Shown: positions 32,414 to 37,339 of the stretch, piece by piece
Layout of the letters: every line of letters begins with the position of its first letter
How positions within the stretch are numbered: position 1 is the first letter of the stretch
NCBI GenBank assembly: GCA_964016885.1
Contig: OZ024740.1
Coordinates: 277,264,001-277,328,000 of the forward strand
From: Eledone cirrhosa
Taxonomy: Eukaryota
Reading direction: 5' to 3'
Length of the DNA: 64,000 bases
The notes under the pieces: generated by a model
What the model was told of the DNA's origin: nothing
Seen by the model: the letters and a program-made list of their open reading frames with translations, nothing else
Databases searched by the model: none
Translations under genes and position numbers: made by a program

Positions 32414-33057
32414 GGAAAAAATGAAACGAAATTTCATTTCCCACTCTTAGTACGGCTGTTACTTAAATATAAGTATGTACACGTACATACATATATGTAT
32501 ACAGACGTACAGTAGTATGTATATATATATACATACATGCACACACATATATATGTACGTATGGATTCACCGAACATTTATTATAATGCTCGGTGTGTTT
32601 GTAAACAAACATCCCGTATTAAGCCGTAGTGTCCAGCAACCATCGTTGCTCGTTTGTTCAACACTGACAAAGGAACGCTGTACTAGTTTCAAGCTTATTA
32701 GCTATCGTCAGCAACGTATACCTTCCTGCCAGATTGTTGAACGTATATACTTACCTTATGCATATTAACGGCTGAGTAGCCCAATTTGCATATCGAGTGG
32801 GTTAATCGGCCGGGTGCACCGAAAACGATAAACGGAAAAAATGAAACGAAATTTCATTTCCCACTCTTAGTACGGCTGTTACTTAAATATAAGTATGTAC
32901 ACGTACATACATATGTGTATACAGACGTACAGTAGTATGTATATATATATACATGCATACATATATATATATGTACGTATGGATTCACCGAACATTTATT
33001 ATAATGCTCGGTGTGTTTGTAAACAAACATCCCGTATTCAGCCGTAGTGTCCAGCAA

Positions 33058-33061
<4 letters not shown>
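32408..33061 (-). mobile_element. Partial-tandem PLE pLTR: ~230-bp direct repeats (32408-32642, 32828-33061) around a hammerhead
   Basis: Near-identical direct repeats, with (TA)n on both sides. Confidence 0.7.
32675..32717 (-). ncRNA. Canonical minimal type I hammerhead ribozyme
   Basis: Minus strand: acgttg-CTGACGA-t-AGCT-aata-AGCT-t-GAAAC-ta-GTA-cagcgt. All three stems pair. Confidence 0.8.
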
Positions 33062-33128
<67 letters not shown>

Positions 33129-33945
33129 TATATTTATTTATTTATTAAAATAACAGATTAAAGTTTAAGTAAAGGATCGCTGCTTTCACCCTTAACGGGA
33201 TCTTCTGAAACTAAAAAAATTCAATCTGTGAACGCAGAAGTAAATATTTCGAAAAACGTTGCAACCGAAGGAAGACAAGTAGACGATACTTTGGATTGTG
33301 GAAATGTTCCCTGGCAAAGAACGGAAGAAAACGAAGATAATACGTCATTATTTGGAGCGATGAAAACAAGTACACGCAAGGACAAAACCACGTTTATGGT
33401 ATAAATGAAGTCGTAGAATAATACTCTATTAGGTGGTTCGTGTAGACGTTCTCTGGCAATGAACGAAAAAAAACGAAGATAATACGACATTAAGTGGTGC
33501 GATGAGAACAATTACACGCAAAGACAAAACCACATTTATGGCATAACTGAAGTGGTAGACTAAAATTCTATTTAGGAATGATTCTCGGCTTCAGTGTTAA
33601 GAATAATGTAAATAAATTACAGAGGTAATTGAAATCAACAAAAATTAGATGTATACATGCACGCATCCATATACGTACATACACATGCATACGAGTAAAC
33701 ACCCGCCATGGGTATACAAATACAAGCACGTACACAAAAAAACACGCACGCACATACAGAACCCACGCAACGCATGTACCCGCACACATACGAACGTATA
33801 CACCAAATACACATAAAAATATATATTTTAAAAAAAATATATATATATGTGTGTGTTTGTGTGCGTGTATACATATAATTATGTAAACGTATATAAATAT
33901 ACACACATAAATACGTATATAACGCGCGCACACACATCTTAGTCT

Positions 33946-36942
33946 TAGTTCCTCCAGTCCCTTGTGGAACATTGGGCGACGAGCTTCCTCCACTTGATCC
34001 AGTCACTGGCGGCCCTTCTAGCATCTCTCCAGGTAATTCCCATCTACCGCAGGTCCTCCCTGAATGTGCTCCGCCATGTTTTTCGTGGTCTTCCCCGTTC
34101 TCTCCTGCTACCTTCTGGTACCCAATCCATGGCAATATGAGCAGGTCGATCTGCCGGAAAACGAAGAATGTGGCCCGCAAACTGCCGTCTCCTTTCCGGA
34201 CAATGACCCTTAAACTCTCCAATCCTGACCTCCTCATCACTTCCTCGTTGCTAACTTGGCCTCTCCATGAAATTTTCAATATGGTCCGAATGCAACGACG
34301 GTGGAATACATCAAGCGTGTTACATACACTTTCCGCACTCTTCCATGTCTCACAGGCATATATTGCTGTTGGTACTACAATGGACATGTAAACACGGAAT
34401 TTGACGGCGTTGCCGATGGAACACCTGGCCCATACCGGACGGAGTCGCTGGAAGACCGCCGCTGCTTTTCCCAGCCGTGTGCGCATATCCATCTCAGCAT
34501 CCCCATCGTCAGAGATGTTGCTGGAAGGGGTTTACACATTCAATGTTACGCTGACCAACTATGATGGGAGGATTTGGACGGTCACCTTTCGACATGGCCT
34601 TGTTTTTTTCACAACTGATGCGCAGGCCAACTTTCTCTGCATTGTCATTTAGAACGTTTGTCATCTCTTGCAGGTCTTCTAGGGAATGGCCTATCACTGC
34701 GATGTCATCGGCAAAGTCCAGGTCGCTTAATCTCCTTCCATCCAAACTGATGCCAAAACGAGGGTCACTCATTGTCTTCTTCATGATGAAATCGATGACA
34801 ATGAGAAAAAGGAAAGGCGAAAGGATGCAGTCTTGTCGAACACCCGTCAAGATGTCAAACATTTCCGTGTTTTCGTCCTTTGTCCTAAAGCAGCACCTGG
34901 AATGTCGGTACAGCGACCTGAAGATGTTAATATATTTCTCTGGGACACCGTAGAGTCTTACAATCTTCCACAATGACTCCCGATGAACACTCAAAAGCTT
35001 TCCTGAAGTCAATGTAGTTGACAACAATGAACCTGCAGAACTCCCGACATTGTTCAATGATATTTCGGAGAGTGAAGATCTGCTCTGAACAAGACCTTCC
35101 ACTGCGGAAGCCAGCCTGTTCGTCTCGAAGATGACGATCTACTTCTGCACTCAGCCGGTTCAGGATGACTGTGCAGAATACCTTCCCTGGCACTGATAGC
35201 AACGTGATCCCTCTCCAGTTGTTGCAGTCTCTGAGACAGCCCTTCTTCAGTAGTGGTACAATCACTCCATGTCCCCAGTCCTCCGACACCTCCTCTTCTT
35301 GCCAAATCACATTGCATAAATGGGTAGCTGCTCCTCTATTACATCCTTGCCGTGCTTCAGAAGCTCTGCAGGAATCTCATCCAGCCCTGCCGCTTTGTTA
35401 TTCTTTTGGCAGCGGATGGCCTTGGCCACCTCAGCTCTTGTGATGTCGTCTAGTCGTACATCCAGCCGGTAGCTCGCTTCCTCCCAGTCAAGCTCGAAGA
35501 ATGTGTTGGGGGATGGTTGATTGAGGACGTCACGAAAGTGTTCGTTCCACCTCTGGGTCTGCTCTTCACTGGCATCCGACCATCTTTGCTCTTGATTGGC
35601 AAACTGCTTCCACTTCGTCCCCCAGTTAGCTCTCTGACGATCCGGCACAGCGTCTTGGAATCATTTCGATCTGCTGCCACCTGTGCCTTTGCAGCCCGAT
35701 CTTCTAACCACTGGAGCTTGTCTTTTCGACAGCTCTTCTTTACTTCCTTGTCAAGACGTCTGTACTCTTTGTCCACTTCCTTCCCTTGCTGTCGAGTTTT
35801 GGTTTGATCTCTTTTGTTCTTAACATTCTTCCTCTCGTCAATGAGATTCCATGAAGTACTGCTGATCCACTGTTCCCGGTTGGTCCCCCTTCTGCTACCA
35901 ATAACTACATCAGCACTCGCCCTGACCGCCTGAGCAAACATCTGCCACTGGTCTTCACGGTTCTGTGTGTGATGTAGTTCTTGGAACTTATTCCTGATCT
36001 CTAGGTAGAATCCCTCTGACGTGCCTTGGTCTTGCAGGCTTGCGACAGCATATGGCCTCATGGTCTTATTTTCTTTGTTCTTCTTCAACCTCAAGCGGAC
36101 TTTTCCAACCACAAGATGAGGCTCAGATATACGTCTGCCCCTCGGTAGGTGCGAACATCCAAGAGAGAGGAACGCCACGTCGTGCTAATGCAGATATAAT
36201 CAATCTCATTCCTGGTGTTGCCATCAGGGGAAGTCTATGTCATCTTGTGAATCTGCCTATGGCTGAAGAATGTATTCCCGATGGAGAGGTTGCTGATACT
36301 GCTCAGGGACAGCAACCGTTCCCCGTTGTTATTGGTGGAATCAGCTGAACCGTGGGGGCCAATGGCTGAATGCATTTCTCTCCTGTCTCCATCTAGCTTG
36401 GCATTGAAGTCACCAATCACCATCCTAATGTCTAACCTGCGTGTTTCTTCTAGGACATCCTGTAGTTGGATAAAGAAGCTATCCTTATCTTCATCTGAGG
36501 CAGCTTCAGTCGGGGCGTAGACTTTCACTACGGTCACCTTGGCTAACCTTGTGCTCAATCTGGCAGTAATAATTCGTTCACTCACTGGCCTCCATCCCAC
36601 AAGAACCCGTGATACATCTCCGGTGAGGATGATACCAACTCCGTGGACATGGTGGTCATCATCACCGGAGTAGAGAATAGTCATGTCTCCGCTGTCGAGT
36701 CGTTCCCGTCCTGTCCACCTCGTCTCGCTGATGCCCATGATGTCAAGGCGATATTCTCCCATCTCTTTCAGCACCTCCTTCATCCGCCCGTTCCGAAATA
36801 GCGTGCGGACATTCCAGGTGCCTACTCTTGAGTTTGATTTGGCCTCATTTCGGCTTTGACCCGGCCCCATCATAGGTGCATCCAGGGATGACGTGTCTTC
36901 TCTTTTCCGCCGCTGGGTATCAAAATGGTTTTTTCTTGTCAT
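33946..36942 (-). pseudogene. RTE APE-RT polyprotein with several frameshifts
   Basis: Fragments 36235-36942, 35450-36178, 35307-35648, 34927-35310, 34509-35102 and the 33946-34492 region. Confidence 0.88.
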
Positions 36943-36989
36943 TTTTTTAGCGGTGAAAAGTTTTTACGGGGTAGGGCTGCTAACCCCAA

Positions 36990-37042
36990 GCCCCAACCAT
37001 CCTCCTTTCTCAACCAGGCTTGGGACCGGCTAAGGCGGAGTT
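36990..37042 (-). ncRNA. Twister ribozyme, 3' cleavage product, at the RTE 5' end
   Basis: AA-CUCC-GCC-UUA-GCCGG-UCCCAAGC-CUGG-UUGAGAAA-GGAG-GAUGG matches the type P1 twister layout: P2 CUCC/GGAG, P4 CCGG/CUGG and the conserved loop UCCCAAGC. Confidence 0.85.
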
Positions 37043-37339
37043 CACACATACCTACATGTAAATACACATATGTTCGCTAAACCAACGTCAACCAAAACAC
37101 AAAGTACACGTATACACACACCCTACATATGTACGAACCCGCATACTCACACAGACACAAAACTCACGTATACTCATAACCATATGCACATGTACCAGTA
37201 GATATAATATAATATATACGCCTATAACATATACAAACAAATATACGTACGAGAAAGTATACGTACCTTCACAAAACATGCAGGTAATATATACTTACCT
37301 ATACAAATAAGTAATGGTATAAACATAACGTATACTTAG

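What the first reader, a model, noticed from the sequence alone, without database searches (positions are those of the whole stretch)
36990..37049. RTE LINE whose first nucleotide is the cleavage site of a twister ribozyme
Seen: directly after the TSD, the minus-strand element begins AACUCCGCCUUAGCCGGUCCCAAGCCUGG..GGAGGAUGG. Known: type P1 twisters read P1-U^AA-P2-GCN...GCCGG-UCCCAAGC-CCGG...P2'-GAGGG-P1' and cleave at U^A; twisters are reported at the 5' end of the Schistosoma RTE Perere-3. Inference: the template RNA was the 3' product of twister self-cleavage, so the 5' P1 strand must be supplied by the insertion site. Here the flank gives ..UGUG|AA, and GAGGG is changed to GAUGG (pseudoknot T1), so this copy is probably inactive. 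Whether a new copy can release its own transcript would depend on the flanking DNA, a site-dependent licensing switch. I am not aware of this being described for cephalopod RTEs.
Basis: partly seen in the sequence, partly recalled or inferred. Interest (0 to 1): 0.75.

Follow-up and report, generated by a model that had tools for sequence, protein, structure and literature searches.

The report
Decayed twister-headed RTE retrotransposon copy
This is a broken copy of a jumping-gene family whose copies start at the base where a twister-type RNA is predicted to cut itself free, a set-up already published for a blood-fluke element; the proposed on/off switch set by the neighbouring DNA is likely weak, because the strand that would pair with the neighbour is predicted to be tied up in the element's own hairpin.

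Summary
A 3.1-kb RTE LINE (37042-33937, minus strand, 7-bp TSD) starts at the AA of a type-P1 twister (Rfam E 3.7e-6, below the gathering score). Of 32 family heads, 24 start at position 1-2 and none shares upstream sequence. Five inverted (twin-primed) copies also stop at position 1-3, away from host DNA, so the template RNA likely ended there. GAUGG and a P4 C>U are decay: the family majority is GAGGG (26/31). The idea that the TSD supplies P1 and licenses the copy is already Liu et al. 2021's model for Schistosoma Perere-3. This scan has also noted twister-headed RTE derivatives in other genomes. My data weigh against that switch. Flanks show no P1 complementarity (0/13 full stems). The P1' G's are predicted to sit in a covarying downstream hairpin, which RTE families without a twister also carry. 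Published assays find P1 dispensable. Against activity, cephalopod twister candidates tested in one screen were inactive. In passing: a single-copy, RT-dead RTE with a 1043-codon open frame and an intact twister (L077) may be a domesticated gene.

The parts
37043..37049 (-). 5' copy of the 7-bp target-site duplication; supplies the -1 base (G) of the cleavage site
   Evidence: sequence
37041..37042 (-). AA: first bases of the element; A37042 is the predicted general-acid adenine 3' of the scissile bond
   Evidence: Rfam alignment; role from PMC8501958 and PMC11662667
36997..37042 (-). Twister 3' cleavage product without P3: P2 (37040-37037 with 37005-37002), T2 GC (37036-37035), P4 (37029-37026 with 37017-37014, C>U at 37016), L4 (37025-37018), catalytic G 37001, T1 strand GAUGG (G>U at 36999)
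37006..37013 (-). 8-nt L2' strand with a U-GNRA-A insert (candidate minimal P5), typical of twister heads without P3
   Evidence: 18 of 20 short-linker heads match; 0 of 35 long-linker heads have a strand of 8 nt or more
36968..36996 (-). UUGG 'P1-prime' strand plus conserved 5'-UTR hairpin; the G's from 36994 are predicted to pair downstream, not with the flank
33945..36873 (-). Broken single ORF: APE endonuclease and reverse transcriptase, at least 4 frame changes plus stops
33937..33948 (-). 3' tail of two CTAAGA units, overlapping the stop codon
33931..33937 (-). 3' copy of the TSD (first A shared with the tail)

Best explanation
This is a broken copy of an RTE retrotransposon family whose copies begin at the AA of a twister fold, which likely cut the element RNA out of host transcripts, and that cut likely depended little on the flanking DNA. 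Shown: the 5' ends pile up at the AA, upstream flanks are unrelated, and this copy has private mutations and a broken ORF. Inferred: a source copy is read from a host promoter, the twister cleaves at N^AA, and the 3' product is translated and reverse-transcribed to its 5' end. The new TSD then gives a fresh -1 base. Predicted: the UUGG strand that the model assigns to P1 is mostly the 5' arm of a conserved RTE 5'-UTR hairpin, leaving at most two U's for the flank. Whether a new copy can act as a source would then depend mainly on read-through transcription and an intact ORF and ribozyme core, with the flank at most tuning the rate.
For: 20 of 32 family heads align from position 1 and 4 more from position 2; one further copy starts at 112. 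Upstream flanks show no in-register homology. Five twin-primed copies have an inverted piece ending at position 1 (4) or 3 (1), joined to element sequence rather than host DNA; two have visible TSDs. A contig from run X4 shows the same kind of joint at 37042. Only 1 of 13 host-flanked AA starts has G at -1, and that G belongs to the TSD, so there is no sign of the extra G that capped L1 templates leave (recalled). Flanks: 0 of 13 full 4-bp P1 stems; purine at -2 in 9 of 13 (background 0.51, p 0.27); in metagenome heads 17 of 33 (background 0.46). With the twister core forced, P1' bases pair with the flank at P of 0.04 or less and the G's pair downstream at 0.98 or more; freeing them costs 4.9-7.1 kcal/mol. 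The hairpin covaries: 5 of 9 pairs and 14 cells with double changes, 0 of 500 shuffles. The same hairpin is seen by eye in Perere-3 and in RTE families C and D, which have no twister. P1 is dispensable and any -1 base cleaves.
Against: No cleavage was tested here. McKinley et al. found none of their cephalopod twister candidates active in vitro, and I could not see which sequences they were. In this family CUUAG can pair with UUGAG and extend P4, which would compete with pseudoknot T2. A 5' pile-up alone also fits an internal promoter. The covariation set was 14 sequences, 10 of them picked by eye from 80 metagenome loci for having this hairpin. Among 10 RTE-linked metagenome heads, only 5 had +3/+4 firmly paired downstream, 1 half, and 4 not. 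ViennaRNA ignores pseudoknots and co-transcriptional order, and P1 could form before the hairpin is made. Daughter flanks are not under selection, so their lack of complementarity does not test source copies. Liu et al. saw rate differences among natural variants, and upstream P0 hairpins lowered cleavage to 0.40, so flanks can matter in other ways.
Confidence: 0.75

Rival explanations
1. Flank-supplied P1 is a real licensing switch: only copies whose TSD pairs with UUGG release their RNA and become sources.
For: The TSD does supply all bases 5' of the cut. Family A is star-like (about 1 shared against 23-68 private substitutions per 1.1 kb), which fits few source copies. The (TA)n target preference often restores U(-1) and A(-2): T at -1 in 8 of 13. 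Liu et al. report different rates among T-variants.
Against: P1 imperfections did not lower cleavage in the McKinley screen of about 2,600 natural twisters, and P1-less twisters cut at near wild-type rate. P1' G's are predicted to pair downstream. UUGGG precedes the same hairpin in family D, which has no twister. Few source copies is the norm for LINEs (recalled). The TA preference also holds for 5'-truncated copies that lack the ribozyme (17 of 33).
Confidence: 0.15
2. The twister is a non-cleaving relic here; an internal promoter starts transcription at the AA and the fold serves in translation or protein binding.
For: No cephalopod twister was active in the McKinley screen. A P4 extension could block T2. 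No copy in the genome reaches Rfam's gathering score.
Against: The 5' end matches the scissile bond to the base, in family A, in L077 and in the decayed L078-L080 heads. Catalytic A and G and both pseudoknots are intact in the family majority. There is no excess G at -1. Perere-3 heads with the same P2, P4 and L1 cleave in vitro and in yeast.
Confidence: 0.1

Closest known systems
T-variant twister ribozymes at the 5' end of Perere-3 (RTE clade), Schistosoma mansoni; Liu et al. 2021, PMC8501958 (read parts 1 and 3-7 of 9, supplement passages)
   Same: Single APE-RT ORF; element starts at AA; TSD abuts the cut site; same P2, P4/L4 and GAGGG-UUGG; short tandem 3' tail; same downstream hairpin by eye; the flank-sets-activity model is already proposed there.
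   Different: Liu et al. do not describe the P1' strand pairing downstream in the parts I read.
Type-P1 twister ribozyme (Rfam RF03160); McKinley et al. 2024, PMC11662667 (sections 32, 33, 35, passages); Gebetsberger and Micura, PMC5408937 (passages)
   Same: P2, P4, T1, T2, catalytic A and G are present in the family majority.
   Different: No encoded 5' P1 strand; scores below the gathering threshold; this copy has a T1 mismatch and a P4 wobble.
HDV-like ribozymes at the 5' ends of R2, L1Tc and RTE elements (Ruminski et al. 2011 not held; known via review PMC6765202 passages)
   Same: A 5' self-cleaving RNA releases a promoterless LINE from a host co-transcript.
   Different: Different ribozyme class; an HDV fold needs only one base upstream (recalled). 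Family C in this genome appears to use such a head in front of the same hairpin (weak Rfam hit).
Conserved domain in RTE 5'-UTRs (Kojima 2018, PMC5786205, passages)
   Same: A mid-UTR segment conserved across RTEs of many animals.
   Different: I could not see the paper's figure, so identity with this hairpin is untested; the passages give no structure and no link to twister P1.

Membership tests
type-P1 twister ribozyme | Covariance-model match | tested here: inconclusive
   34.5 bits, E 3.7e-6; siblings up to 49.8; gathering score 67.2 not reached
type-P1 twister ribozyme | Stems P2 and P4 with L4 UCCCAAGC | tested here: met
   one G.U in P4 of this copy
type-P1 twister ribozyme | Pseudoknots T1 (GGG with CCC) and T2 (GC with GC) | tested here: inconclusive
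   Both complementary in the family majority; T1 has a U-C mismatch in this copy; formation not modelled
type-P1 twister ribozyme | Catalytic A(+1) and G of GAGGG | tested here: met
   37042 and 37001; 19 of 20 and 29 of 31 heads
type-P1 twister ribozyme | Stem P1 | tested here: not met
   0 of 13 full stems; pairing with flank at P of 0.04 or less; published as dispensable
type-P1 twister ribozyme | Self-cleavage at N^A | not testable with these tools
   Indirect only: 5' ends
RTE-clade LINE | Single ORF with APE then RT | tested here: met
   (broken in this copy)
RTE-clade LINE | TSD and short tandem-repeat 3' tail | tested here: met
RTE-clade LINE | RT phylogeny groups with named RTEs | not tested
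   No tree with named references; homologues were mostly unnamed. Assignment rests on anatomy and UTR likeness to Perere-3
Perere-3-type twister-headed RTE | Full-length copies begin at the AA with the TSD adjacent | tested here: met
   24 of 32 heads at position 1-2; clear TSD abutting the AA in the window and L054; most others sit in (TA)n where TSDs cannot be delimited
Perere-3-type twister-headed RTE | Co-transcription with upstream host sequence | not testable with these tools
   No RNA holder listed

The most novel reading that the evidence does not exclude
In twister-headed RTEs the supposed P1' strand is really the arm of a conserved RTE 5'-UTR hairpin that takes the place of P1, making the ribozyme independent of the insertion site (contrary to the published Perere-3 model) and letting sister RTE families swap twister and HDV-like heads in front of the same hairpin. 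In this genome one such element (L077) has been domesticated as an RT-dead, endonuclease-bearing gene that keeps its self-cleaving head.
Probability: 0.3. Interest if true: 0.65.

Novelty: new member of a known kind. Interest (0 to 1): 0.38.

Why it matters
The finding itself extends a published flatworm mechanism to another animal genome and gives the twister ribozyme a second well-mapped LINE context. Twin-primed copies add evidence, independent of target-site joining, that the RNA ends at the cut site. The useful new point is a cheap test of a published claim. Assays that stop the RNA at UUGG omit the downstream hairpin, so a flank effect seen there may vanish in the native context. If L077 is a host gene, it would be a natural case of a ribozyme that separates a coding RNA from its promoter and cap.

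Tried and rejected
Rfam gathering scan of the window: no hits. Run search with L077: no RNA holder listed; the four runs laid are contigs of unrecorded kind from one study, possibly the assembly's own sample, and cannot show RNA ends. Testing 'P1-restoring flanks mark young lineages' was not possible: full-length copies are 88-95% alike, star-like, and all broken. GAUGG as an inherited, tolerated subfamily variant was rejected: the window and L049 share only 1 derived site. The idea that the hairpin is twister-specific was rejected: families C and D carry it without a twister. My automatic TSD finder mostly returned microsatellite matches, so only hand-checked TSDs are used. A single-sequence fold of the L077 endonuclease was unusable (pLDDT 36.5); the PDB search gave only exonuclease III. 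No close orthologue of L077 was found among the 7994 candidates scored (best 52%), which does not show absence. Literature: searches listed no paper on twisters at cephalopod RTE ends; one search found none on a downstream hairpin or GNRA insert; one search listed one unread cattle paper. Liu's supplement had no 'octopus' or 'cephalopod' (long files may be cut). McKinley's supplement could not be read and may hold this very motif. Ruminski 2011 is not held.

Full report
Observation. The minus strand carries a 3,106-base element from 37042 to 33937, bounded by a 7-bp duplication that abuts the first AA and the (CTAAG)A tail. Pfam finds APE and RT pieces. Against homologous proteins the copy has at least 4 frame changes plus stops. 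Rfam twister-P1 aligns over 36993-37047 with E 3.7e-6 but below its gathering score. The alignment places the cut between G37043 (in the TSD) and A37042. I did not test the host's identity.

Family. A search with the first 163 bases gave 37 matches in G000, and a 3' query had 271 candidates; both are lower bounds. I fetched 34 places and one. Thirty of these loci plus the window form family A, with 32 heads because L067 has two. Their alignments start at position 1 (20), 2 (4), 3 (1), 5 (2), and 7, 8, 15, 21, 23 (1 each). One further copy starts at 112. Starts at 2-5 mostly lie in (TA)n and are ambiguous. Upstream flanks share no in-register sequence. Of 33 further copies chosen by their 3' end, none reached the head in the stretch fetched. 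Full-length copies are 88-95% alike, star-like and all broken. The window differs from the majority head at two sites, C27U and G44U. Only 2 of 23 whole heads keep all 33 core bases.

Was the template cleaved? A 5' pile-up also fits a promoter, so I looked for further signs. The stop coincides with the scissile bond in family A, in L077 and in three decayed relatives. In five twin-primed copies the inverted piece ends at position 1 or 3 and is joined to element sequence, so target-site joining did not set that end. A contig from another sample shows such a joint at 37042. G at -1 occurs in 1 of 13 host-flanked AA starts; that capped templates leave an extra G is recalled. Against this, McKinley et al. 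found no active cephalopod candidate, and CUUAG can extend P4 against UUGAG.

Is there a licensing switch? The idea is published: Liu et al. say the TSD forms the 5' P1 strand and may make a Perere-3 copy active or not. The same paper shows that C, G and A at -1 cleave. McKinley et al. report no loss from P1 imperfections, and P1-less twisters cut at near wild-type rate. Here flanks are not complementary: 0 of 13 full stems in family A, and purines at -2 and -3 at background in both family A and 33 metagenome heads. That test is weak, because daughters' flanks are not selected. The structural point is stronger. With the core forced, the G's after GAGGG pair with a downstream C run at 0.98 or more and with the flank at 0.04 or less, in four copies tested. 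The hairpin covaries in 14 sequences, though 10 were picked by eye, and only 5 of 10 RTE-linked metagenome heads show it firmly. It is visible by eye in Perere-3. It also stands in families C and D of this genome, which lack a twister; D even has UUGGG at its base. So UUGG is better read as part of an RTE hairpin than as a strand waiting for the flank. Family A prefers (TA)n targets even without the ribozyme (17 of 33 truncated copies against 6-13% background), which often gives U at -1 as a by-product.

Breadth. A metagenome scan stopped at 120 matches. Of 80 loci examined, 11 had an RTE-like ORF downstream; many contigs were too short to tell. Heads without P3 carry a longer L2' with a GNRA motif (18 of 20), and none of 35 long-linker heads has a strand that long; these sequences are not independent. 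Earlier notes of this scan report twister-headed mini-RTEs in other genomes; they are unchecked leads.

L077. G000:C27:7637669-7640833 is a different RTE with no close copy in the genome. Its twister core matches the family A majority at 33 of 33 bases, and its frame is open for 1043 codons. Yet 25 of 96 near-invariant RT positions are changed, including two of the catalytic aspartate positions, against 0-7% in 22 homologues and 6-8% in two dead family A copies. Endonuclease plus linker show 9 of 95 (Fisher p 0.004). At the divergence implied by the RT, neutral simulation expects about 15 stops (0 of 300 runs had none) and leaves 33 bases untouched with P 0.014. A second allele has 14 substitutions and an in-frame 3-base deletion with no stop, but 10 of the 14 change the amino acid, which gives no sign of present constraint on sequence. 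Domestication or an RT-dead non-autonomous lineage both remain open. There are no expression or orthologue data.

Verdict. The feature is real and the cleavage reading is likely. It is a further member of the Perere-3 type, and the licensing switch is both published and, on this evidence, likely weak. Interest comes from the testable challenge to that model and from L077.

Noticed in passing
L077:201-3365 (G000:C27:7637669-7640833, +): Single-copy RTE with an intact twister core, a 1043-codon open frame, a dead RT and a better-kept endonuclease; candidate domesticated gene. Allelic differences are mostly nonsynonymous.
   Followed up: partly
L285-L289, L291, L292, L309, L310 (family C heads, e.g. 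L286:2437-2511, -): The RTE family closest to L077 (55-57% endonuclease identity) has an HDV-like head (weak Rfam hit, E 0.02) instead of a twister, in front of the same hairpin; suggests ribozyme swapping.
   Followed up: partly
L293-L306 (family D): RTE family with some nearly open frames (up to 1056 codons), the same hairpin, no twister, and two or three alternative long 5' UTRs.
   Followed up: no
window 37006-37013 (-) and metagenome loci such as L187, L191, L193, L195, L205: Twister heads without P3 carry a U-GNRA-A insert in L2' with GAGA, GCGA, GAAA and GGGA variants; candidate minimal P5.
   Followed up: partly
L152-L158; L067:276-470: Frequent 5' inversions and rearrangements; L067 has a doubled head with both units starting at AA; L056 and L081 have short twister-derived pieces at the junction.
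   Followed up: partly
L078-L080: Three much-decayed twister heads of another family, also starting at AA, with the hairpin; no family A body was found behind them.
   Followed up: no
window 32420-33080: A direct duplication of roughly 220-250 bases between TA tracts just downstream of the element, seen by eye.
   Followed up: no
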